A DNA stretch of 64,000 bases from Lentimicrobium sp. (GTDB lineage: Bacteria; Bacteroidota; Bacteroidia; Bacteroidales; Lentimicrobiaceae): NCBI GenBank assembly GCA_034007585.1, contig JAVEQP010000001.1, positions 5,031 through 69,030 on the forward strand, written 5' to 3'. The notes under the pieces were generated by a model that was given only the letters and a program-made list of their open reading frames with translations, was not told the DNA's origin and did not search any database. Shown one piece after another: positions 28,354-37,874 of this stretch (positions are counted from its first letter, which is position 1; every line of letters begins with the position of its first letter). Made by a program: the position numbers and the translations under genes.

Positions 28354-28866
28354 TTATAATTTAGTACCACATTCATAACAATACCCACCTGATGCTGTTG
28401 AGGGGTATTGTTTACCACATTCCGAACAGTAAATTTTGGCATCTTTACTTCTTGATGATATTGTCTCATCCTTTAATGACAGGCCTGAGATAAGAATGGA
28501 TACTGAAGCTATCAAAACAAGATAAAATCCTATGCCATAATTTGTAAGATCACCAATGAAATTGCTTGAATAGCCTATAGCAACAAGCAATAATAAGACG
28601 CCCGGAATTATTCCTGGAATTATAGCTCCTGCCAGATGACCCTTCGTCATTACTTTTTGACGATCACCTGAAAGCGCTACAATTAATGATATCAGAAATG
28701 CAATTATAACTATGTACCCACTACCATCTCTCGTTTCCATAAGGGAAACTGAAAGGCCCCACACTTTGATAAAAGGCAAAAATGCAGCTATAATGCCAAC
28801 AATTGCAGATGCTATAATCGCAATTCTTTGTTTGACTATTCCTTGTTCTCCAATTTGATTATTCAT
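28354..28866 (-). CDS. 4-TM membrane protein with C-terminal double zinc ribbon
   Basis: Four hydrophobic segments, then YCSECG...YCYECGTKL. Confidence 0.78.
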   Translation of the reverse strand: MNNQIGEQGIVKQRIAIIASAIVGIIAAFLPFIKVWGLSVSLMETRDGSGYIVIIAFLISLIVALSGDRQKVMTKGHLAGAIIPGIIPGVLLLLVAIGYSSNFIGDLTNYGIGFYLVLIASVSILISGLSLKDETISSRSKDAKIYCSECGKQYPSTASGGYCYECGTKL

Positions 28867-29043
28867 TTTTTTCGCTTTAAATGTGTTTAAAAAGAATCAC
28901 CTTATTTCTCTTTAGTCCTTTTAGAGCCGTTGTTTTTTTTCGCTCTTTACTTTCATTATTGGGACAAACTATTCAGTCATTGCTTTTGTAAGGGTATTCA
29001 CAACTGAATTTCTTCAAATTATAAAAGCATTAGAAAAATAAAT

Positions 29044-30167: not shown

Positions 30168-31652
30168 TTAGCGTATCATCCCACCTTTCATTTTGGCCTT
30201 CCATTCACCATAATCGTCTTTAAAAAGGATAAAATCTCCGATGTTATCAAAAGAGACTTCTTTACCTTGGTTGAAAGGATCATTTAATAAACAACTACCA
30301 ATAACGCGAATTTGCATTGGCCAATATCTTTCTCTATCGTTATATATGCCAATTTTCTCAACCTTGATGGAATTGAGTTTTGCATTACTTCCTCCCAATA
30401 AATTCCCAACCCAAGAAACAGGGATGCCTTCTTGTAAAGCAGCCGTCACCGCGCTAGCAATTTGTGCTTCATTTGGCATTGCACTTCTTGCTTTTTCTGC
30501 TAACAACAAAGCATCTTTATACCCCTTTACATAGTTGTTTGCAGATAAGAATTCTTTCTCTGCACCTTTAAATTCGTTTTGATTCATGAGAGCTTGGCCT
30601 TTTTCGTAATGAGCTTGTGCATCCTTCTCATCTGCCATGTTTTTATATTTAGTAGCTAACGCTTTCGCGTCTTTAAAATTGGAAACAAAGGAAACCGCTT
30701 TATTAAACTGTATTACAGCATCGCGAAAATTACCTACATTGACCAATGTTTTACCTTTATTATAACAAATTTGAGCATCATTTTCGTCTGCTATGGTTTT
30801 GTATTTAGTGGCTAATGCCTGTGCATCTTTAAAATTAGGCATAAAGGAAACCGCCTTATTAAACTGTATTGAAGCATCACGAAAGTTATCTGTATTAACA
30901 AAAGCTGTACCTTTATCATAACAAATTTGAGCATCCTTCTCATCAGCCATAGCTTCATATTTTGAAGCCAAAGTTTTCGCGTTTTTGTAATTGCCTGTAA
31001 TATCATCTGCACTCATAAACTTTTTTGATGCATCGCGATATTTCTCTTTACTCACCAAATTTTGTGCAATATTATAATAGGATTCGGAGGTTTTCTCTCT
31101 AGAGTCTTTGTAAGATTCACTATAGGTAAAAGCTGATGTATACTCTTTAATAGCTGTTTCATATTCCCCTTTTTTGAAAAAAACTTCAGCTTTCAAATAA
31201 TGTTCTTCAGCAGCATTATTAATAGCAATGGATAGCTTTGTGTCAATATCAATTATAGGCATTTCGAGAGGTCTCTTAATCTTCTTTCCGTCAATTTTTA
31301 TCTCTTCAATCGGATTGATTGATGCAATCTCTTTTCTTATTTTTTTTAATGTTTCATATTCTTCAATGGCCTTTCCCCAATCTAGTTTACGCTCATTTTC
31401 TTGAGCTGCTTTTAGATGGGAATCAACGACTATTTTAATAACAGGCCTAAATAATTCTATCGTTTTTTTATGATCGTTATCACTGCGGAGTTTAATAATG
31501 AGTAGATCAAGTGCCTGATCATACTGACCTTGTTCATAGGCTTTTTTAGCATCCCTATACTCATCAGCCCGAAGAGGTGTAATTACGGAACCGGCAAAAA
31601 TGCTAAGGCAAATTAGAGCCACTAAAACTAAAGAATAATTTGAGTTTTTCAT
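30168..31652 (-). CDS. Exported TPR-repeat protein with internal 52-aa tandem repeats
   Basis: Signal peptide, TPR helices, and three ADE.DAQ..Y.KG...F.DA..QF.KA units. Confidence 0.85.
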   Translation of the reverse strand: MKNSNYSLVLVALICLSIFAGSVITPLRADEYRDAKKAYEQGQYDQALDLLIIKLRSDNDHKKTIELFRPVIKIVVDSHLKAAQENERKLDWGKAIEEYETLKKIRKEIASINPIEEIKIDGKKIKRPLEMPIIDIDTKLSIAINNAAEEHYLKAEVFFKKGEYETAIKEYTSAFTYSESYKDSREKTSESYYNIAQNLVSKEKYRDASKKFMSADDITGNYKNAKTLASKYEAMADEKDAQICYDKGTAFVNTDNFRDASIQFNKAVSFMPNFKDAQALATKYKTIADENDAQICYNKGKTLVNVGNFRDAVIQFNKAVSFVSNFKDAKALATKYKNMADEKDAQAHYEKGQALMNQNEFKGAEKEFLSANNYVKGYKDALLLAEKARSAMPNEAQIASAVTAALQEGIPVSWVGNLLGGSNAKLNSIKVEKIGIYNDRERYWPMQIRVIGSCLLNDPFNQGKEVSFDNIGDFILFKDDYGEWKAKMKGGMIR

Positions 31653-31673
31653 ATTATGTAAATTTAATTTCCC

Positions 31674-31731
31674 CTACTCATGTGGCTTTTCGCATCCGCC
31701 CCGTTTTTTAAGTGGTTTCTGGTCTCCACTA
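31674..31731 (-). repeat. Leader module R1, copy A
   Basis: Minus strand TAGTGGAGACCAGAAACCACTTAAAAAACGGGGCGGATGCGAAAAGCCACATGAGTAG, 21 nt before ATG 31652; near-identical to 35505-35563. Confidence 0.9.
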
Positions 31732-31756
31732 TTTCAATTAAACTGTTTTTCTGCAA

Positions 31757-31806
31757 TGAATTTCTTCAAAACAAATTTGTCAGGGTGGCTCTCTTGTTTG
31801 TTTCAT
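31757..31806 (-). repeat. Leader module R2, copy A: micro-ORF MKQTREPP* (31806-31780) plus TGAA-GAAA-TTCA hairpin (31768-31757)
   Basis: 24 nt identical to 34765-34788 starting exactly at the ATG; shared TGTTTTGAAGAAATTCA.TGCA downstream. Confidence 0.85.
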
Positions 31807-31873
31807 TTTATTTTGTCATTTTTTAAACTTACACATAATGCATATTATGGCAGAGTTTAAGTTATCTCTAAAG

Positions 31874-33148
31874 TCATATATCATTTTTCATTGATATCTT
31901 TTCTTCAATTTTTCTGACACTACGCTGAATGGACAAAAAAACTAGGAGTGTTCCAATTAATACAATCAGAAAAATTCCACCTCCAATACCTGCTAAGGAT
32001 TTAGACCGAAGTCCTGTTTTGATAATTTTTTTACCTTCAAATTGCATTGCAGCCAATGCCTTCTCCTCTACATACTGGTTATCAATACGTTCAATTTGTT
32101 GAGCATATTCTTCATCAATTTGAGCTATTCGAATTTCACGATCCCGATTTTTATCCATAAATATATCATAATAACGTGATAAAGATTTGTTATGGTTCTC
32201 TCCTTTAATTTCCGTTAGCAGGGGGATAAATAAATCTGTGGCTTCCTGCAGCTTTGGTAAGTCTTCGTTGAATGCATAAAAATATTGCATGAATAGACTT
32301 ATAGTATTGATGCGTTCCTTAGAATCAAATTTATCAATTATCTCCGAAACATAATCAATAAATGGTGACCCATCATTTGGGTTTCTCTTACCGAAATCCA
32401 GAATCAAATCCATGTAGCGCAGATTATTCTCATTATCCATTCTGGGAATAACTTTTGATAGAGATGTGCAGACATTTATATTCTGGGATTTACTTTTTGA
32501 GCAATACTGTACCAACGAATTGATTGCCGGTTTTCGCTTATCTTCAGGCAATTGCTGCAAAACTGTAATATAAGCATCAAGCAGGTGTTTTTTATCAGTA
32601 TAAGTGGGTGCATCAGATGTCCTGTAAGCATAATCCAACTTTTCCTTAAGTCCATACTCTGTTACAATCCAATTCCGATACCTTTCGTCTTTATATACAT
32701 TCCAGTATCTTTCGCCATATGGGTAATACCAGTAACCCGCACCTGACCAGGAGTATTTAGAAGGAGGGATTAATTTCTCTAATGTTTGAATAGTCTCGTC
32801 ATAAGCTTTTTTACCCAGCGTGTCTTCTGATGCATATGTGCTAGTTTCAACAGCCTGGTTTATGGCTTTTTTCTGGTATGTTGTTTTTGAGGTATAAACC
32901 TTATTATTATCTGCATCATCAATAGTGATTTCACTCAGCAATACTGCCACCGGAGCGGGAAGTTGTTGTTTTTCCGGATAAGCTTGTTTTTCAACTTTCT
33001 TCGCTAAAGGAGGTATTACACTCCATATGAAGACCAGAACACTTATAACTATTGCCAATGATGAAAGAGCAATAAATAAATGCCAGAAGATTAATGAAAA
33101 ATTAAAAACATATTTGTCCTCAATTTTTGAAAAGTAGTTTGTTTTCAT
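31874..33148 (-). CDS. Hypothetical membrane protein (N- and C-terminal TMs flanking a large helical periplasmic domain)
   Basis: 424 aa, TM near residues 15-42 and TM near the C-terminus. Confidence 0.75.
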   Translation of the reverse strand: MKTNYFSKIEDKYVFNFSLIFWHLFIALSSLAIVISVLVFIWSVIPPLAKKVEKQAYPEKQQLPAPVAVLLSEITIDDADNNKVYTSKTTYQKKAINQAVETSTYASEDTLGKKAYDETIQTLEKLIPPSKYSWSGAGYWYYPYGERYWNVYKDERYRNWIVTEYGLKEKLDYAYRTSDAPTYTDKKHLLDAYITVLQQLPEDKRKPAINSLVQYCSKSKSQNINVCTSLSKVIPRMDNENNLRYMDLILDFGKRNPNDGSPFIDYVSEIIDKFDSKERINTISLFMQYFYAFNEDLPKLQEATDLFIPLLTEIKGENHNKSLSRYYDIFMDKNRDREIRIAQIDEEYAQQIERIDNQYVEEKALAAMQFEGKKIIKTGLRSKSLAGIGGGIFLIVLIGTLLVFLSIQRSVRKIEEKISMKNDI

Positions 33149-33195
33149 CTCGAAGTTATTTGATTTTTTTTATTTTGAATTTTAGTGTTTTTCAA

Positions 33196-34644
33196 TTAAG
33201 CGCTTCCAGCAGCCAGTAAAACAAGTCCAACAATTAGAATTAGTTTACCCATGCTGGTGATAACAGTATGCCCTCTTAGGTTTGCACCATACCTTTGGGA
33301 TACTTTTCTTTTCCCAAATTCATAACGACCTTCTAATTTTTTTGACCCATCTTTATAATATTCAACAAATGGACCATTCTTAACATGCCCGGTATATGCA
33401 TATTCTTTAATTATCTTTCCTCCTATGTAATTTTCCTCTTTAATTTTAATACTTTTATTGTTAAAGAAAAAATACTGCCCATCCGCAATTTTTCCATTAA
33501 AATAAACTAAGGAAAATTCAAGCTTCCCATTATCAAACCATCGTGAATGTTTCCCATCGATTTGTTCATTCAGATATGATTTTTCTTCTTTTTTTTGTCC
33601 ATTAGGAAACCACTCAGTCCACAACCCATCTCTTTTATCGTTGAGATACTGTCCTTTTTCTTTCGTATTATTACTATATGTTTCAAGAAATACACCATTT
33701 TTCTTGCCCATATTCCATTCCCCATAATAAGTTTTAAAATCATTTCTTAATATTCCTTTCCCATGAATGTCTCCATCTTTATAAACACCATCCCAAACTA
33801 TACCTCCCCTTTCATTATAGTCGATTCCTTTTCCATCTCTCAGCCCATTTCTGTAACTGCCTTCAAAACTTTTTTGTCCATTTAAGTACCATTCTATCCA
33901 TGAGCCATGCTTTTTCCCATTTAATAATTTTCCTTCTTCTTTTTTGTGATCCGAAAAGTAATCATAGTAACCAATATATAAGCTGTCATTATATATATAT
34001 ACCGAGCAGATGTCTCCTGATTTGGTTTCCAATCTAATGATTTCCTTCCCTCTGTCGTCATACTCCATAATTATATCATTCGTTATTTTGTCTTCACTAT
34101 AAAGTATCTCCTTTCTTAGCGTGCCGTTTTTATGCCACTCACTGTATTTCCCATTCTTTTGTCCATCTTTATAAGAGGCAAGCTTTTCTTTTTTTTCATT
34201 TTCATAATATAAAGTGAACAGTCCCTCTTTATTTTCATTCAAATAGTTTCCAGTTAATTTTTTATTCCCATTTGGATACCACTCTGAATATGATCCATTT
34301 AACTTTCCATTTAAATAATTGATCTCGTGGCTTTTATTTCCGTTTTCAAACCACTCTGTGTGCAAGCCATTCTTCACACCATGAATAAAATAACCCTCCT
34401 TTTTTTTTCTTTTACTTTCATAATATTCTACAAATAAGCCATTTTTGAGGCCTTTATAAAACTGCCCCACTTGTTCATAGGTGGTTTCATCCACTATCAA
34501 ACCCGTAAAAGGATAGCCATTCAGATACGCAATGTTTTCTTTAAATTGTAGTTCCCTTAGATACGCAGGATGCCGGTCGCCTTGCGCATAGCAAGACGAT
34601 AAAATAAGCATTGCAAATGATAGCATCAGAAAATTTTTCATCAT
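33196..34644 (-). CDS. Exported MORN-variant repeat (YwqK-like) protein
   Basis: Signal peptide and many G.(W/Y).EW(Y/F).NG.K..EG.Y..G...G repeats; ends in an atypical hydrophobic tail. Confidence 0.85.
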   Translation of the reverse strand: MMKNFLMLSFAMLILSSCYAQGDRHPAYLRELQFKENIAYLNGYPFTGLIVDETTYEQVGQFYKGLKNGLFVEYYESKRKKKEGYFIHGVKNGLHTEWFENGNKSHEINYLNGKLNGSYSEWYPNGNKKLTGNYLNENKEGLFTLYYENEKKEKLASYKDGQKNGKYSEWHKNGTLRKEILYSEDKITNDIIMEYDDRGKEIIRLETKSGDICSVYIYNDSLYIGYYDYFSDHKKEEGKLLNGKKHGSWIEWYLNGQKSFEGSYRNGLRDGKGIDYNERGGIVWDGVYKDGDIHGKGILRNDFKTYYGEWNMGKKNGVFLETYSNNTKEKGQYLNDKRDGLWTEWFPNGQKKEEKSYLNEQIDGKHSRWFDNGKLEFSLVYFNGKIADGQYFFFNNKSIKIKEENYIGGKIIKEYAYTGHVKNGPFVEYYKDGSKKLEGRYEFGKRKVSQRYGANLRGHTVITSMGKLILIVGLVLLAAGSA

Positions 34645-34737
34645 ACCGAATTTAGAATGTGTAACCTACGCCACTATGCGTTACTCTTTTTTGGGATTTA
34701 TGCTATATCCTATTGGTAAGTAATTGTTTCATTGCAT

Positions 34738-34788
34738 TGAATTTCTTCAAAACATCTTTTACTTGGGTGGCTCTCTTGTTTGTTTCAT
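34738..34788 (-). repeat. Leader module R2, copy B: micro-ORF MKQTREPPK* (34788-34759) plus TTGAA-GAAA-TTCAA hairpin
   Basis: Matches 31757-31806. Confidence 0.85.
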
Positions 34789-34863
34789 CTTTTTATTTTT
34801 AGTTTGTTTTTGTGCAGATTTTCGGGTAATAATCAGTACTTTTTTTTATTAATGTAACCTGGG

Positions 34864-35154
34864 TTAGTCCGGTATTTCCGATTTGGCGGAGAAACGCACT
34901 CCACCCCCAATTAGCAAGACAATTCCTCCTGTAATCATCGTATTGGTTGCTTTGCCCCGCTTTTGCTTACGGAGAGAATTGGTATGTTCGGTTTCCAACC
35001 AATTGCCCAAATCGTTCCGGCCTCCAAAAATGCCCATCTTTGATTCACTGGTGCTAAATTCTTTAGGTTGATTTGTGGCAAATTGGATTGCGCCATACAC
35101 AAAGATGATAGCTCCCAAAATGAGTATTACCAGTGCTAATCTCTTAAAATTCAT
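34864..35154 (-). CDS. Small 2-TM protein
   Basis: TM-loop-TM, 96 aa, same architecture as 29044-29301. Confidence 0.65.
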   Translation of the reverse strand: MNFKRLALVILILGAIIFVYGAIQFATNQPKEFSTSESKMGIFGGRNDLGNWLETEHTNSLRKQKRGKATNTMITGGIVLLIGGGVRFSAKSEIPD

Positions 35155-35176
35155 GATGATTCAGGTTTTGGGGAGT

Positions 35177-35482
35177 TTACATAAAGGCAGCCGCTCCGCC
35201 TAAAAGGGCACCGAAAACGGTTAGCAATAAAATTATGCCCAGGAGTGAAATTATTAATCCAGCAACAGCTAATCCTTTCGGCTCTTTAAATACTCCAACA
35301 AAAGATAATATTAGCCCTGTTAACCAAATTAACCACCCCAAAACGGGTACCCAGCCTAAAAATATTGCTATTAGTGCTAAGACAAAACCGGCAGTTCCCA
35401 CACCATTTGATTTCCGCTCTATTTGATTTATCACCACTGTCTGCCCAGATTGTGTTTGAGGATTTTGATAATCGTTTGCCAT
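35177..35482 (-). CDS. Small membrane protein (DUF4190-like)
   Basis: SNGVGTAGFVLALIAIFLGWVP...FVGVFKEPKGLAVAGLIIS pattern. Confidence 0.7.
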   Translation of the reverse strand: MANDYQNPQTQSGQTVVINQIERKSNGVGTAGFVLALIAIFLGWVPVLGWLIWLTGLILSFVGVFKEPKGLAVAGLIISLLGIILLLTVFGALLGGAAAFM

Positions 35483-35504
35483 CTTTTATTTGTATTTATT
35501 TTTT

Positions 35505-35563
35505 CTACTCATATGGCTTTTCGTATCCGCCCCGTTTTTTTAAGTGGTTTCTGGACTCCACTA
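35505..35563 (-). repeat. Leader module R1, copy B
   Basis: Minus strand TAGTGGAGTCCAGAAACCACTTAAAAAAACGGGGCGGATACGAAAAGCCATATGAGTAG, 22 nt before ATG 35482. Confidence 0.9.
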
Positions 35564-35669
35564 CATAGAATAGTGTATGGTTTAATCCACTCGTTTAGCT
35601 TTTCACTTCCACCCCGGTTTTCAGTCTGTTCAAGTCAGGTAAAACGCCCCACACTGAAAACTCACCCTG

Positions 35670-35737
35670 CAATATTACTTTTTATCTTACCGCAGCGCAA
35701 CACCATTTTTGGCCATTTTTTTTTACCCCTATATTTG
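35670..35737. promoter_or_regulatory. Back-to-back promoter pair
   Basis: Minus: TTG (35700-35698), N20, TAATATTG (35677-35670; one mismatch) facing the array. Plus: TTTG (35708-35711), N18, TATATTTG (35730-35737). Confidence 0.5.
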
Positions 35738-35907: not shown

Positions 35908-36525
35908 TCACACAACTCCCTGCCTGATGGCGATAGCTACCAGTTCAGCCACATTTTTAGCACCGGTTTTAGCACGTGCTATCTTGCAATGCGATTCGAT
36001 GGTATGTACTGACAGCCGCATAAGCTCAGCAGTGACTTTGGTACTGTTCCCCTCAGCCAGATGTTTTATTACTTTAATTTCTTGGGGGCTTAGGTGACTT
36101 CCCGTGTAGCGGATGGTAATGCGATTGGGCTTATCATCGTTGTGAACCAGGTAATCAATATACCCCTGGTGGATGCGTTTAATGGCATTGCTGATATCGG
36201 TGATACCCGACTCTTTGCTGCGAAATCCCTCCGCACCGTTTTTTCGCAGTGAATCGATCAACGGTTTATCGTTGAGCGAGGTGAGAATAAGCACCTTTAC
36301 CTCGGGTTTATTTTTTTTGATGGCTATCAGGGTCTCCTCGCCGTTCATTTCAGGCATATCCACATCCAGCAGCATTACATCAATGGGTTCAACGGCCACT
36401 GCCTGCAGTGCCTCTTTACCGTTTTGGGCATGTCCCACCACTTCTATTTCGGGATCTGACTTCAGGTAAGCAATCAATCCTTCTTTAAAACTTTGATGAT
36501 CGTCGGTGATAAATACTTTTATCAT
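35908..36525 (-). CDS. NarL/LuxR-family response regulator
   Basis: REC (TDDH, LLDVDMPEMNG, ILTS, SK) plus LuxR HTH (LSPQEIKVIKHLAEG.S....AELM.LS..TI..H). Confidence 0.93.
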   Translation of the reverse strand: MIKVFITDDHQSFKEGLIAYLKSDPEIEVVGHAQNGKEALQAVAVEPIDVMLLDVDMPEMNGEETLIAIKKNKPEVKVLILTSLNDKPLIDSLRKNGAEGFRSKESGITDISNAIKRIHQGYIDYLVHNDDKPNRITIRYTGSHLSPQEIKVIKHLAEGNSTKVTAELMRLSVHTIESHCKIARAKTGAKNVAELVAIAIRQGVV

Positions 36526-37874
36526 AACTCTTCACTTTTGATGGTGGCAATAAGCGTGGTACCATAACCCGGCCGGCTGTCGATGATAAGTTCACCCTCC
36601 AGTTGGTTTTCGATACGCATTCGCATGTTGTGCATCCCCAGACCATGATGTGCGTCATTCACATCAAAACCTTTGCCATTGTCGCAAATGACCATACTCA
36701 CCTGTTGATCGTGCTGCACCAGTTGGATATCTACCTCCGTGGCTTCGGAGTGCTTCAAAATGTTATTCAGGGCTTCCTGAAACACCCGGTAGAGCATCAA
36801 TTGAGCTGCGGATGACAAATGGCCATTTAACCGGTGAAAATAAACATTAAAATGGGCACAACTGCGGGGAAGTATTTGATACAAACTACTTTCGATAGCA
36901 TTGGTGAGGCCAACTCGTTGTAAGACAAAAACAGAATGGTTGTGCGAAATATCGCGAACGTCTTTTATCAAATCTGTAACAGCGCCAATAGATTGAGATA
37001 AACCAGAATAGTCCTGAGCTTGCTGCTGGGCTTCCAGGTTCATTTTAACCAAAGCCAGTTGGCAACCAACACTGTCATGCAGTTCTTTGGAAATTCGCTT
37101 GCGTTCTTTTTCCTGGCCATCGAGCAACAGGTTAATATTCTTGCGTTTTTCCTCTCTCAACTCAGCCGTGCGCTGCTGAACTTCATCCTGAAGATGGTCG
37201 TTTAGGTAGTTGATATGCTGCTGAGCCAGAAAATCATTGCGGGTCATTTTTTCAAGATAGTAGGCTGCATACAGACTTAGTAAGCTACTTCCTACAATAA
37301 AGAACAGGCTATTGATAAAAGTTTGCGTAAGGTTGATGGGTGAATCAGAAGGAATGGGTTCAATACAAACCCAAAACACCAGAATATATGCTGCGATTAC
37401 GAATACATTTAACAGTGCAGAATGCACAAAACGTACACGCAGGTAAAAAGTAACGATTGCAGAAGTAAGAATAAGGCCGGGATAAAAAAAGCTAAAATCA
37501 TAACCATTTTGGTTAAGCAAACGCAATTTCCAGAGTATCCCTACCGCTGCTACCAACCCAAAAAACAACAGGAACCACTGCATGTGCCTGGCAAAAACTT
37601 TTGTAAACGAAACGCCCAGTATCATAGCAAAGATGCCGCTTACCAAAAGTCGATTGACTATAAGTTTTGGCTCCAATTCCGGGAAAACATTGATATCAAT
37701 AAAATAAAAAACCAGATAAATAAAGATAGAAATTAAGAGGCCAAAGCGAACCTGAACTTTGAAACGATCGAAATAGTCGATAATAAAACGTTTCTCATTA
37801 TACCCATCTCTAAAGCCGAAGAGGATATTCCACCAACTTACTTTTTCAGGGGATGAAATCATATTCTTTTTCAT
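36522..37874 (-). CDS. HisKA_3 (NarX/UhpB-type) sensor kinase with 6-TM input domain
   Basis: ERKRISKELHDSVGCQL H-box, QEALNNILKHS, DNGKGFD, GLGMHNM and PGYGT; 4-bp overlap with the regulator. Confidence 0.93.
   Translation of the reverse strand: MKKNMISSPEKVSWWNILFGFRDGYNEKRFIIDYFDRFKVQVRFGLLISIFIYLVFYFIDINVFPELEPKLIVNRLLVSGIFAMILGVSFTKVFARHMQWFLLFFGLVAAVGILWKLRLLNQNGYDFSFFYPGLILTSAIVTFYLRVRFVHSALLNVFVIAAYILVFWVCIEPIPSDSPINLTQTFINSLFFIVGSSLLSLYAAYYLEKMTRNDFLAQQHINYLNDHLQDEVQQRTAELREEKRKNINLLLDGQEKERKRISKELHDSVGCQLALVKMNLEAQQQAQDYSGLSQSIGAVTDLIKDVRDISHNHSVFVLQRVGLTNAIESSLYQILPRSCAHFNVYFHRLNGHLSSAAQLMLYRVFQEALNNILKHSEATEVDIQLVQHDQQVSMVICDNGKGFDVNDAHHGLGMHNMRMRIENQLEGELIIDSRPGYGTTLIATIKSEEL

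What the first reader, a model, noticed from the sequence alone, without database searches (positions are those of the whole stretch)
31757..34788. Duplicated micro-ORF MKQTREPP(K)* with a stalling-type ending
Seen: two spacers share an identical 24-nt block that begins exactly at an ATG in A-rich context and ends exactly at the Pro-Pro codons. It is followed by a stop immediately (TGA, 31782-31780) or after one Lys (AAG TAA), then by the GAAA hairpin ~12 nt later. Established: Pro-Pro and (Glu)-Pro-stop contexts stall ribosomes (EF-P dependent), and RAPP/RAGP motifs define ApdA/ApdP/SecM arrest peptides; REPP is similar but not identical. Inference: a repeated ribosome-stalling leader that gates downstream cassettes according to translation stress. 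An alternative is a decayed longer ORF (CFEEI[H/Q]C is readable downstream).
Basis: partly seen in the sequence, partly recalled or inferred. Interest (0 to 1): 0.65.

Follow-up and report, generated by a model that had tools for sequence, protein, structure and literature searches.

The report
Conserved micro-ORF in duplicated mRNA leader
Two gene spacers in this Bacteroidales genome share a tiny 8-9 codon reading frame (MKQTREPP) that a second species keeps at the same two places, so it is probably a real leader element, but it is not shown to be translated and it does not fit the known ribosome-arrest peptides.

Summary
On the minus strand an identical 24-nt block, ATGAAACAAACAAGAGAGCCACCC, lies at 31806..31783 and 34788..34765. 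It is followed by TGA in one copy and AAG TAA in the other, then by a second shared block (TGTTTTGAAGAAATTCAWTGCA).

These are the only two copies found by a 71-nt probe in the contigs of four metagenomes that hold this organism. The blocks form the 5' half of a leader module. In spacer 1 the module runs into a known DUF805 RNA (Rfam RF03081).

A second species, whose flanking protein is 64% identical, has the same module at the same two sites. Its frame reads MKQTKKPP*. ATG, frame, Pro-Pro and stop are kept, with two synonymous and two conservative changes, while the linker differs in sequence and length. The ATG context ranks 3rd and 7th of 284 intergenic ATGs.

My best reading is a short translated upstream ORF at the head of a portable leader (about 0.4). 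Several results argue against purely peptide-level selection:
- The two copies in this genome share no synonymous differences.
- Closer relatives of the second species lack the ATG or the frame.
- Block B looks like a promoter -7 box.

Membership of the RAPP/SecM arrest-peptide family fails. The Arg and the small second residue are not kept, and the GAAA hairpin is weak with no terminator. Transcription start mapping and ribosome profiling would decide.

The parts
31780..31806 (-). Micro-ORF copy 1: ATG AAA CAA ACA AGA GAG CCA CCC TGA (MKQTREPP*). Block A is 31806..31783.
   Evidence: Sequence. Exact repeat with 0 expected by chance. The orthologue in L186 c2 reads MKQTKKPP*. The start context ranks 3rd of 284 intergenic ATGs.
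34759..34788 (-). Micro-ORF copy 2: same 24 nt, then AAG TAA (MKQTREPPK*). Block A is 34788..34765.
   Evidence: Sequence. The orthologous position in L186 c1 is upstream of the MORN gene. The start context ranks 7th of 284.
31807..31830 (-). A-rich tract ahead of copy 1, starting with AAGTTTAAAAAA. This motif recurs downstream of the 424-aa family gene in L186 and L026, and further downstream in L034.
   Evidence: 20 of 24 identical to L186 c2.
31752..31773 (-). Block B copy 1, TGTTTTGAAGAAATTCATTGCA. It holds a weak GAAA hairpin and also resembles a Bacteroidota -7 box (TTTG) plus the first transcribed bases.
   Evidence: 16 of 20 identical to L186, with a 1-nt indel.
34733..34754 (-). Block B copy 2, TGTTTTGAAGAAATTCAATGCA.
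31774..31779 (-). Variable linker after the stop codon in copy 1. The distance from CCC to TTTGAAG is 12 nt here, 13 nt in copy 2 and 15 nt in L186.
   Evidence: Alignment (5 of 12 identical, with gaps).
31667..31734 (-). DUF805 RNA (Rfam RF03081), the 3' part of the spacer 1 leader, ahead of the TPR gene 31652..30168.
   Evidence: cmscan 81.2 bits against a gathering score of 51.1. 54 of 58 identical to L186.
34645..34732 (-). Rest of the spacer 2 leader ahead of the MORN gene. It has no DUF805 match and may be a decayed derivative. GUGGC at 34674..34670 is predicted to pair with GCCAC of block A.
   Evidence: No Rfam hit at E<=5. 23 of 58 identical to the DUF805 segment. Folds; the null test gave 6%.
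29005..29018 (-). Third copy of the block B core, TTTGAAGAAATTCA, preceded by TTG-N21-TATAATTTG (promoter-like) and upstream of gene 28866..28354. There is no block A here.
35498..35566 (-). Second DUF805 RNA, which heads the first small genes of the array. It has no block A or B.
   Evidence: cmscan 82.5 bits.

Best explanation
Blocks A and B are the conserved 5' half of a portable mRNA leader module. The module runs in this order: A-rich tract, 8-9 codon upstream ORF (block A), a free linker that carries the stop codon, a conserved 20-nt block B, then a DUF805-type RNA (intact in spacer 1, decayed in spacer 2), then the start of the main gene.

The module sits on both sides of the MORN plus 424-aa gene pair. 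The surrounding array is co-oriented, encodes envelope proteins and looks cassette-like.

I take the micro-ORF to be a real, translated upstream ORF. Bacteroidota choose start codons by A-rich unstructured context rather than by a Shine-Dalgarno sequence, so an AUG in such a context on a transcribed spacer should load ribosomes.

The inferred mechanism is as follows. Ribosomes translate and then terminate slowly at Pro-Pro-stop. While there, they cover the C-rich end of block A (CCACCC). In folding predictions this stretch otherwise pairs with the G-rich core of the downstream leader. Translation of the micro-ORF would therefore set how the downstream leader folds and how well the next gene is translated, as a coupling or attenuation-like device.

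Shown: the repeat, its restriction to these two copies in the contigs searched, its conservation in a second species at both sites, and the gene-like start context.

Inferred: that it is transcribed as part of the mRNA, that it is translated, and any effect on the downstream gene.
For: - The repeat is exact and non-random. In four metagenomes the 71-nt probe matched only the contig that carries these two copies.
- L186-L189, whose 424-family protein is 64% identical, carry the same module at the same two positions, each with ATGAAACAGACAAAAAAGCCGCCC TAA and a DUF805 RNA.
- Of the four differences in block A, two are synonymous (CAA>CAG, CCA>CCG) and two conservative (R>K, E>K). The stop is kept as TGA, TAA or AAG TAA, while the linker has only 5 of 12 identities and a different length.
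- Block A has no indel in any copy, whereas the linker and block B do.
- In the window, spacer 2 has lost its DUF805 RNA (23 of 58 identical) yet keeps block A 24/24 and block B 18/19. That argues for selection on the blocks.
- The ATG contexts score 6.7 and 5.9 on a matrix built from 40 gene starts of this window. That is the 65th and 57th percentile of real starts, and ranks 3 and 7 of 284 intergenic ATGs.
- A search of about 400 kb of related loci for ATG-(3-10 codons)-Pro-Pro-(0-1 codon)-stop with an A-rich upstream found only these copies.
- A more diverged homologous leader (L024 c2) still opens with ATG ACA GAC ACC AGG (M-T-D-T-R). It has an in-frame 3-nt indel, and 5 of 9 changes are at third codon positions.
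- Other arrays of this family carry other leader micro-ORFs with coding-type divergence. In L064, MKHIFTFYDSS* and MKHIFNFFDSS* differ by 4 synonymous changes.
- There is no terminator-like site between the upstream genes and block A.
- In all four leaders the CCACCC, CCGCCC or GCCAC end of block A is predicted to pair with a G-rich stretch 85-95 nt downstream (pair probability 0.8-1.0). This pairing excludes stem P2 of the DUF805 RNA. P2 forms in the spacer 1 and L186 c1 leaders when the micro-ORF is held single-stranded.
Against: - There is no transcription start or ribosome data. The RNA runs hold only low-depth contigs.
- The two copies in this genome have no synonymous difference, although linker and flanks are randomised. 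Both copies in each species share the same species-specific changes. This points to nucleotide-level recognition or gene conversion rather than peptide selection.
- Retention of the frame across species is only mildly surprising. Five random substitutions leave the ORF intact in 22-27% of trials, and intact with Pro-Pro in 7-9%.
- The whole leader is 73-93% conserved, so the ORF (81%) does not stand out.
- Relatives closer to L186 than the window is (L028 81%, L024 78%, L021 72%) lack the ORF upstream of their MORN genes. L024 keeps GCCGGCCCCTAACA with a 2-nt insertion and has AAG in place of ATG. L034 keeps ACAGACAAA..GAGAACCACCG without an ATG.
- The predicted long-range pairing is weak evidence. 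Four percent of random intergenic 27-mers pair as well in spacer 1, and 6% of shuffles do in spacer 2. It is absent in L024 and L034.
- Block B resembles a promoter -7 box. If transcription starts there, the micro-ORF lies outside the downstream mRNA.
Confidence: 0.4

Rival explanations
1. Internal promoter or operator acting at the DNA level. Block B would carry the Bacteroidota -7 element (TTTG) and the first transcribed bases. Block A plus the A-tract would be an upstream recognition element for an alternative sigma factor or an activator. One such fit is an ECF-like TGAAAC-N15-CCTGA. The ATG and the stop would be incidental. The same promoter module would then drive the MORN and TPR sub-operons, and a third promoter with a normal -33 box would carry the same start region at 29018.
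For: - The block B core TTTGAAGAAATTCA occurs three times in the array. The third copy is preceded by TTG-N21-TATAATTTG.
- This geometry resembles two other promoter-like sites read by eye from the spacer sequences. One is TTG-N20-TATATTTG ahead of the kinase operon. The other is TTG-N20-TAATATTG at 35700..35670 (sequence), which is conserved in L186.
- In orthologous MORN leaders (L021, L024, L028) a TAAYTTGA box lies 61-66 nt from a shared ACGCAT motif, the same distance as block B in spacer 2.
- All four between-species changes in block A fall between TGAAAC and CCTRA.
- The two copies are identical at the nucleotide level within each genome and change together between genomes.
- Relatives keep pieces of the nucleotides without the frame.
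Against: - There is no -33 TTG and no TA in the -7 box of the two copies.
- The distance from block A to TTTGAAG varies (12, 13 and 15 nt), which is poor for a fixed two-part promoter or a phased activator.
- The putative ECF -10 differs between the two copies of one genome (CCTGAC against CCAAGT).
- Among the ten further ORFs of the window that I scanned, none is an ECF sigma gene. The relative's array has no two-component system beside it.
- Conserved blocks of 24 and 20 nt are long for promoter elements.
- There are no transcription start data.
Confidence: 0.3
2. One reading: MKQTREPP is a ribosome-arrest peptide of the RAPP/RAGP kind, or an EF-P-dependent Pro-Pro stall. On this model it senses translation stress and gates the downstream cassette through the GAAA hairpin.
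For: - Pro-Pro directly before a stop is kept in three of four copies, and Pro-Pro-Lys-stop in the fourth.
- From my own knowledge, C-terminal prolines slow termination in E. coli (Hayes, Bose and Sauer 2002; TnaC ends in Pro-stop).
- The start context is good.
Against: - In RAPP-like motifs the Arg is reported as irreplaceable. Position 2 accepts Gly or Ala, and only partly Ser, Asp or Pro. An N-terminal adjacent region is needed as well, and such arrests are not rescued by EF-P (PMC12992588).
- This peptide has R-E in one species and K-K in the other, and it is only 8 residues long.
- The diverged homologue in L024 has lost Pro-Pro-stop.
- The hairpin is -5 to -6 kcal/mol, no better than shuffles, and has no U-tract.
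- The downstream genes are not Sec or YidC components.
Confidence: 0.12
3. A non-coding RNA element: a 5' extension of the DUF805-type leader. On this model the functional parts are the C-rich box (CCRCCC), which pairs with the G-rich core, and the block B hairpin. The element could be a site for a trans-acting RNA or protein, or for RNA processing. The ATG would be irrelevant.
For: - Long-range pairing is predicted in all four leaders. CCA>CCG turns an A/C mismatch into a G-C pair in the relative, and spacer 2 pairs with a different partner, GUGGC.
- CC.CC and TTTGA are invariant in a four-genome alignment in which the ATG is not.
- The two copies are identical at the nucleotide level.
Against: - The pairing is not significant against the nulls (4% and 6%). 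The z-scores of the whole leaders are -0.4, +0.15 and -2.3.
- The pairing is absent in L024 and L034.
- This model does not explain the invariant AUGAAACA, the kept stop or the gene-like start context.
Confidence: 0.13
4. A relic of a local duplication or of cassette recombination, with no present function.
For: - The probe found only these two copies, both in one array.
- The arrays are modular. The TPR gene (89% identical homologue) lies in another context in L068. In relatives, different genes follow the same junction ..CCGACCGTT.
Against: - Blocks A and B are intact while the 10 nt between them and the DUF805 part of spacer 2 are randomised.
- The same two-site arrangement is kept in a species whose flanking proteins are 64% identical.
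Confidence: 0.05

Closest known systems
DUF805 RNA motif (Rfam RF03081; clan with DUF805b RF02914), a candidate cis-regulatory leader of Bacteroidota of unknown function
   Same: Spacer 1 and both copies in the relative end in a full DUF805 RNA, at 81 and 76 bits. The module precedes envelope-protein genes, as DUF805 RNAs do in the related loci.
   Different: Blocks A and B lie outside the 68-nt Rfam model. They are absent from the other DUF805 leaders I looked at. Spacer 2 keeps blocks A and B without a recognisable DUF805 RNA.
Leader-peptide upstream ORFs that act through ribosome position, such as TnaC (Pro-stop termination stall), the ErmCL/CatA86 type short leaders, and trp/his attenuators (from my own knowledge)
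   Same: It is a very short ORF at the head of a leader. It ends in proline(s) next to a stop codon, and its 3' end overlaps a predicted alternative RNA pairing.
   Different: There is no downstream terminator or sequestered ribosome-binding site. No cognate amino-acid codon run or antibiotic link is evident. The organism lacks Shine-Dalgarno-based initiation. Conservation is at the nucleotide level within a genome.
RAPP-like arrest peptides ApdA/ApdP/ApcA and SecM (PMC7897499, PMC10951233, PMC12992588)
   Same: The C-terminus has the form x-x-Pro-Pro, it belongs to a small ORF, and it lies upstream of genes for exported proteins.
   Different: The Arg is not conserved (Lys in the relative). 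Position 2 is Glu or Lys rather than Gly or Ala. The peptide is 8 residues with no N-terminal adjacent region. A stop codon follows Pro-Pro, whereas in those peptides elongation arrests with Pro-tRNA in the A site. The downstream genes are not Sec or YidC components.
ORF-11 type short ORFs at integron attI/cassette junctions, which raise translation of cassettes without their own initiation region (from my own knowledge)
   Same: It is a short ORF right after a putative cassette junction. In spacer 1 that is AAG|TTTAA, following the inverted repeat CTTAAAC..GTTTAAG. In relatives, different genes follow one junction ending GTT. This fits a role in loading ribosomes for the next gene.
   Different: No integrase or attI was seen here. 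The attC-like status of the window's hairpin is untested. The micro-ORF stops about 125-130 nt before the main start codon, so direct coupling is unlikely.

Membership tests
RAPP-like / SecM-type arrest peptides | Arg at the first motif position, reported as irreplaceable | tested here: not met
   The window has R (AGA). Both copies in L186 have K (AAA). The requirement is taken from PMC12992588.
RAPP-like / SecM-type arrest peptides | Small residue (Ala or Gly; partly Ser, Asp or Pro) at the second motif position | tested here: not met
   Glu in the window and Lys in L186.
RAPP-like / SecM-type arrest peptides | An N-terminal adjacent region in the exit tunnel is needed in addition to the core | tested here: not met
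   Only four residues (MKQT) precede the motif.
RAPP-like / SecM-type arrest peptides | Elongation arrest at Pro-Pro, shown by accumulation of peptidyl-tRNA or by a toeprint | not testable with these tools
   This needs in vitro translation or ribosome profiling.
Regulatory leader-peptide uORF (general) | Start, frame and stop are kept among homologous leaders | tested here: inconclusive
   They are kept in 4 of 4 copies across two species. L024 c2 keeps the ATG but not Pro-Pro-stop. The ATG or the frame is lost in L024 upstream of MORN and in L034. Chance retention is 7-27%.
Regulatory leader-peptide uORF (general) | The initiation context resembles that of real genes of the organism | tested here: met
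   Matrix scores are 6.7 and 5.9, against a gene mean of 4.7. That ranks 3rd and 7th of 284 intergenic ATGs.
Regulatory leader-peptide uORF (general) | Excess of synonymous over non-synonymous change | tested here: inconclusive
   Two synonymous and two non-synonymous changes between species. Counting L024 as well, 7 of 13 changes fall at third positions. There are no synonymous differences between the two copies in one genome, which argues for nucleotide-level constraint.
Transcription attenuator | An intrinsic terminator, or a hairpin that sequesters the start site, downstream of the leader ORF | tested here: not met
   No terminator-like site lies in either spacer. The hairpin is -5 to -6 kcal/mol with z of -0.5 to -1.
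DUF805 RNA (RF03081) | Covariance-model score at or above the gathering threshold | tested here: met
   Met for 31734..31667 (81.2 bits) and 35566..35498 (82.5 bits). Not met anywhere in spacer 2, and blocks A and B lie outside the model.
Bacteroidota housekeeping promoter (-33 TTG / -7 TAnnTTTG) | Both boxes present with a spacing of 19-21 nt | tested here: not met
   Block B has TTTG but reads TTGTTTTG or ATGTTTTG, with no TTG 19-21 nt upstream. The third copy, at 29018, does fit approximately.
Integron-type cassette array (attC junction G|TTRRRY) | Different genes joined after the same core site; inverted R''/R' repeats | tested here: inconclusive
   In the relatives L196-L199, three different downstream genes follow ..CCGACCGTT|AGGCAC, |GGCGTT and |GTGGGC. 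In the window only the inverted repeat CTTAAAC..GTTTAAG lies ahead of block A. No attC model was available and no integrase was seen.

The most novel reading that the evidence does not exclude
The Pro-Pro-stop micro-ORF is a translation-sensing switch for the orphan DUF805 leader RNA. A ribosome lingering at the stop codon would keep the CCRCCC box from pairing with the invariant CGGGGCG core, so that the DUF805 fold can form and the next gene of the cassette is translated. That would be the first mechanistic handle on DUF805 RNA. As far as my literature searches and my own knowledge go, it would also be the first leader-peptide attenuation-type device reported in Bacteroidota.
Probability: 0.12. 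Interest if true: 0.8.

Novelty: new variant of a known kind. Interest (0 to 1): 0.5.

Why it matters
DUF805 RNA is one of the commonest unexplained leaders of Bacteroidota envelope and accessory genes. In this phylum, translation control without a Shine-Dalgarno sequence is poorly understood.

This module is compact and conserved in two species. It combines a gene-like micro-ORF, a free linker and a conserved second block directly upstream of a DUF805 RNA. One derivative has lost the DUF805 RNA but kept both blocks. That gives a small, mutable test system of about 150 nt, in which the ATG, Pro-Pro, the stop, the C-box and block B can each be changed. It can be used to ask whether these leaders work through ribosome traffic, through an internal promoter or through RNA folding.

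If it turns out to be only a promoter, the finding is ordinary.

Tried and rejected

Searches that found nothing useful:
- An exact 21-mer search of genome contigs gave no hit.
- A degenerate block A pattern gave 115 hits, all chance, mostly AAAAAAGCCGCC terminator arms.
- A combined A+B pattern in genome contigs gave 6 chance hits.
- The same kind of pattern in metagenome contigs gave 9 chance hits in GC-rich coding DNA.

Population variation:
- Same-species contigs and four more metagenomes show no variation in the spacers, so there is no population-level information.

RNA runs:
- X25-X28 are low-depth contigs with no information on transcript ends.

Readings I rejected:
- Plus-strand coding. 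The 48-aa and 42-aa ORFs across the blocks are in different frames in the two copies and overlap the DUF805 RNA.
- A longer decayed ORF (MKQTREPP..CFEEI). It is out of frame in copy 2, and block B has a 1-nt indel between species.
- A sigma-54 site on the plus strand. The match to the -12 box is poor, and no gene lies in that direction.
- An FNR/CRP-type palindrome, TTGA-N6-TCAA. It is perfect only in copy 2 and is not kept in relatives.
- A binding site for the adjacent LuxR-type response regulator. The relative has the module but no two-component system beside it.
- Recent gene conversion as the sole cause of identity in the window. The 10 nt between the blocks are not homogenised.
- Homology between the genes downstream of the module in the two species.

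Full report
**1. What is there**

All genes of the region lie on the minus strand. In order, they are:
- a histidine kinase and a LuxR-type response regulator (37874..35908)
- two small membrane proteins (35482..34864)
- a MORN-repeat protein (34644..33196)
- a 424-aa protein of unknown family (33148..31874)
- a TPR protein (31652..30168)
- further small genes (Pfam)

The two long spacers, ahead of the MORN gene (spacer 2) and ahead of the TPR gene (spacer 1), share ATGAAACAAACAAGAGAGCCACCC exactly (31806..31783 and 34788..34765). No other copy exists in the window even with three mismatches, and none appeared in 100 shuffles.

The frame reads MKQTREPP-TGA in spacer 1 and MKQTREPPK-TAA in spacer 2. 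Nine to ten unrelated bases later comes a second shared block, TGTTTTGAAGAAATTCA[T/A]TGCA.

The GAAA hairpin inside block B is real but weak. It folds at -6.1 and -5.2 kcal/mol, no better than a quarter to a sixth of shuffles. There is no terminator-like site in either spacer.

**2.

Spacer 1 continues into a full DUF805 RNA (Rfam RF03081, 81 bits) that ends about 15 nt before the TPR start codon. A second DUF805 RNA heads the two small genes at 35566..35498.

Spacer 2 has no detectable DUF805 RNA. The core of block B, TTTGAAGAAATTCA, occurs a third time at 29018..29005. There it is preceded by TTG-N21-TATAATTTG, which looks like an ordinary Bacteroidota promoter.

I laid the contigs of four DNA metagenomes that hold this organism (word depth 15-30) on the 71-nt element. 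Each run gave one contig only, the one that carries these two copies.

**3. Relatives**

Same-species contigs are identical over the spacers, so they give no information on variation. The 424-aa protein has many homologues. Most of their loci have other leaders.

One lineage has the same module at the same two places. This is L186-L189 with L063, named Bacteroidales or Tenuifilaceae bacterium by its sources, and its protein is 64% identical to the window's. One copy lies upstream of its MORN gene. The other lies downstream of its 423-aa gene and is followed by unrelated genes.

Both copies read ATGAAACAGACAAAAAAGCCGCCC TAA CACACAATCAAC TTTGAAGAAAATTTATTGT.., followed by a DUF805 RNA. The frame is MKQTKKPP*.

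Identities between the orthologous leaders (spacer 1 against the relative's second copy):

| Segment | Identical positions |
|---|---|
| Upstream A-rich tract | 20/24 |
| Micro-ORF with stop | 22/27 |
| Linker | 5/12, different length |
| Block B | 16/20, with a 1-nt indel |
| Next segment | 16/22 |
| DUF805 RNA | 54/58 |
| Stretch up to the main ATG | 25/28 |

Within the window, the decayed spacer 2 keeps block A 24/24 and block B 18/19. Its linker (5/12) and its former DUF805 part (23/58) are randomised. Blocks A and B are thus under constraint, and that constraint does not depend on an intact DUF805 RNA.

**4. Evidence for a translated micro-ORF**

- ATG, frame, Pro-Pro and an immediate stop are kept in all four copies. 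The stop is TGA, TAA or AAG TAA, inside an otherwise free linker.
- Two of the four nucleotide changes are synonymous, and the other two are Arg>Lys and Glu>Lys.
- Block A never has an indel.
- I scored the two ATG contexts on a matrix built from 40 gene starts of this window. They reach the 65th and 57th percentile of real starts and rank 3rd and 7th of 284 intergenic ATGs.
- A pattern search of about 400 kb of related loci for such Pro-Pro-stop micro-ORFs with an A-rich upstream returned only these copies.
- A more diverged homologous leader (L024, second site) still starts ATG ACA GAC ACC AGG. It has an in-frame 3-nt indel and most of its changes are at third codon positions. It then runs on to 14 codons without Pro-Pro-stop.
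- Other arrays of the family carry different leader micro-ORFs with clear coding-type divergence. In L064, MKHIFTFYDSS* and MKHIFNFFDSS* differ by four synonymous changes.

**5. Evidence against peptide-level selection**

- Five random substitutions leave the ORF intact in 22-27% of trials, and intact with Pro-Pro in 7-9%. The cross-species result is suggestive only.
- The two copies in the window have no synonymous difference, although the neighbouring bases are scrambled.
- Both copies in each genome share the same species-specific bases. That is what recognition at the nucleotide level, or gene conversion, would give.
- Lineages closer to L186 than the window is (L028 81%, L024 78%, L021 72%) lack the ORF ahead of their MORN genes. 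L024 keeps GCCGGCCCCTAACA with a 2-nt insertion and has AAG where the ATG would be.
- The distant L034 keeps AAGTTTAAAAA..ACAGACAAA..GAGAACCACCG at the same distance from a DUF805 RNA, without an ATG.
It is met in part.

**6. The arrest-peptide idea**

According to PMC12992588, the Arg of RAPP-like motifs is irreplaceable. The second position tolerates Gly or Ala, and only partly Ser, Asp or Pro. An adjacent N-terminal region is also required, and these arrests are not relieved by EF-P.

REPP in the window and KKPP in the relative fail the first two tests, and four residues (MKQT) fail the third. A slow termination at Pro-Pro-stop remains plausible from general knowledge, but it is untested here.

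**7. RNA pairing**

In all four leaders, the minimum-energy and centroid folds pair the C-rich end of block A with a G-rich stretch 85-95 nt downstream. The pairs are:
- CC-A-CCCUG with CGGGG-C-GG in spacer 1
- CCGCCCU with GGGGCGG in the relative
- GCCAC with GUGGC in spacer 2

Pair probabilities are 0.8-1.0. This helix excludes stem P2 of the DUF805 RNA. P2 appears in the spacer 1 and L186 c1 leaders when the micro-ORF is forced single-stranded, as under a ribosome.

The controls are weak. Four percent of random intergenic 27-mers pair as well in spacer 1, and 6% of shuffles do in spacer 2. L024 and L034 do not show the helix. I keep this as the mechanistic hypothesis, not as a result.

**8. 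The promoter rival**

The TTTG of block B lines up with -7 boxes. The third copy has proper -33/-7 geometry. In orthologous MORN leaders, a TAAYTTGA box sits at the same 61-66 nt from a shared ACGCAT motif. All four changes in block A lie between TGAAAC and CCTRA, an ECF-like layout.

Several points count against it:
- The two copies have no -33 TTG and no TA in the -7 box.
- The distance from block A to TTTGAAG is 12, 13 or 15 nt.
- The ECF-like -10 differs between the two copies.
- No sigma gene is among the ten ORFs scanned.

The available RNA runs are low-depth contigs without information on transcript ends, so the position of the transcription start remains open.

**9. Array context**

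The arrays are modular:
- The TPR gene's 89% homologue follows DUF4282 and LemA genes elsewhere.
- The genes next to the module differ between the two species.
- In four contigs that encode one identical 421-aa protein, three different genes follow the same sequence ..CCGACCGTT, continuing |AGGCAC, |GGCGTT or |GTGGGC. This is the pattern of an integron-type core site, G|TTRRRY.
- In the window, an inverted repeat CTTAAAC..GTTTAAG lies just ahead of the A-rich tract of spacer 1.

Earlier notes of this scan had proposed DUF805 leaders on integron-like cassettes in other genomes. My data agree for the relatives and leave the window open.

**10. Verdict**

The repeat is real, functional in some way, and conserved. 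It is best described as a micro-ORF-bearing 5' extension of a DUF805-type leader.

| Reading | My estimate |
|---|---|
| Translated regulatory micro-ORF | about 0.4 |
| Promoter or operator | about 0.3 |
| Non-coding RNA element | about 0.13 |
| Relic with no function | about 0.05 |

Noticed in passing
window 35670-35700 (-), with L186:2185-2432: A promoter-like site, TTG-N20-TAATATTG, lies in the 425-nt spacer that heads the array. The relative conserves it together with flanking boxes (ATCCCCAAATTCGGTT, AAAGTAATATTGCAG). It is probably the main promoter of the array.
   Followed up: partly
window 35577-35622 (-): A degenerate third DUF805-like copy (67% identical to the copy in spacer 1) lies directly upstream of the DUF805 RNA at 35566..35498, as a tandem remnant.
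   Followed up: no
L064:440-480 and L064:3640-3680; L034:5930-5955; L021, L024 and L028 upstream of their MORN genes: Other leaders of this array family carry different micro-ORFs. L064 has MKHIFTFYDSS* and MKHIFNFFDSS*, two copies in one genome that differ by four synonymous changes. L034 has MLHFDSS*. L021, L024 and L028 have M(I/T)NRTFxF.. ahead of their MORN genes. They share an F-x-F-(D/K)-S-S core and may form a leader-peptide family.
   Followed up: partly
L021:4828-4980, L024:3551-3710, L028:3800-3960, L186:5843-5990, L196:3003-3275: A conserved non-coding element of about 150-270 nt lies directly downstream of the 421-aa gene in five related lineages. In L196-L199 it ends at ..CCGACCGTT, after which three different genes are joined. 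This is the behaviour of an attC-like cassette junction.
   Followed up: partly
window 31824-31862 (-): A compound inverted repeat, CTTAAAC-TCTGC-CATAAT-ATGC-ATTATG-TGTAA-GTTTAAG, lies just downstream of the 424-aa gene. It is followed by A's rather than T's. It may be a short attC-like site. The AAGTTTAAAAA motif recurs in L186, L026/L031 and L034.
   Followed up: partly
window about 35190: There is a recombination boundary among strains. Contig L019 is about 10% diverged from the window upstream of about 35190 (kinase, regulator and first spacer) but nearly identical downstream to 27874.
   Followed up: no
window 34796-34803 (-) and L186:2760-2767: The octamer AAACARAC occurs twice in the MORN-side copy, once about 24-26 nt upstream of the ATG and once inside block A. 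The R is A at both places in the window and G at both places in the relative. This is another sign of concerted change or of a repeated recognition site.
   Followed up: no
L068:1-2527: An 89% identical homologue of the TPR protein lies in a different arrangement (DUF805 RNA, DUF4282, LemA, TPR), without blocks A or B. The genes and the leaders of these arrays reassort independently.
   Followed up: partly
L024:59-126 and L024:3928-3995: L024 also has a duplicated leader. The same 58 nt (GGACTGCCGACCATTTGGTTTGACG..) precede two DUF805 RNAs, so duplicated extended leaders recur in this family.
   Followed up: no
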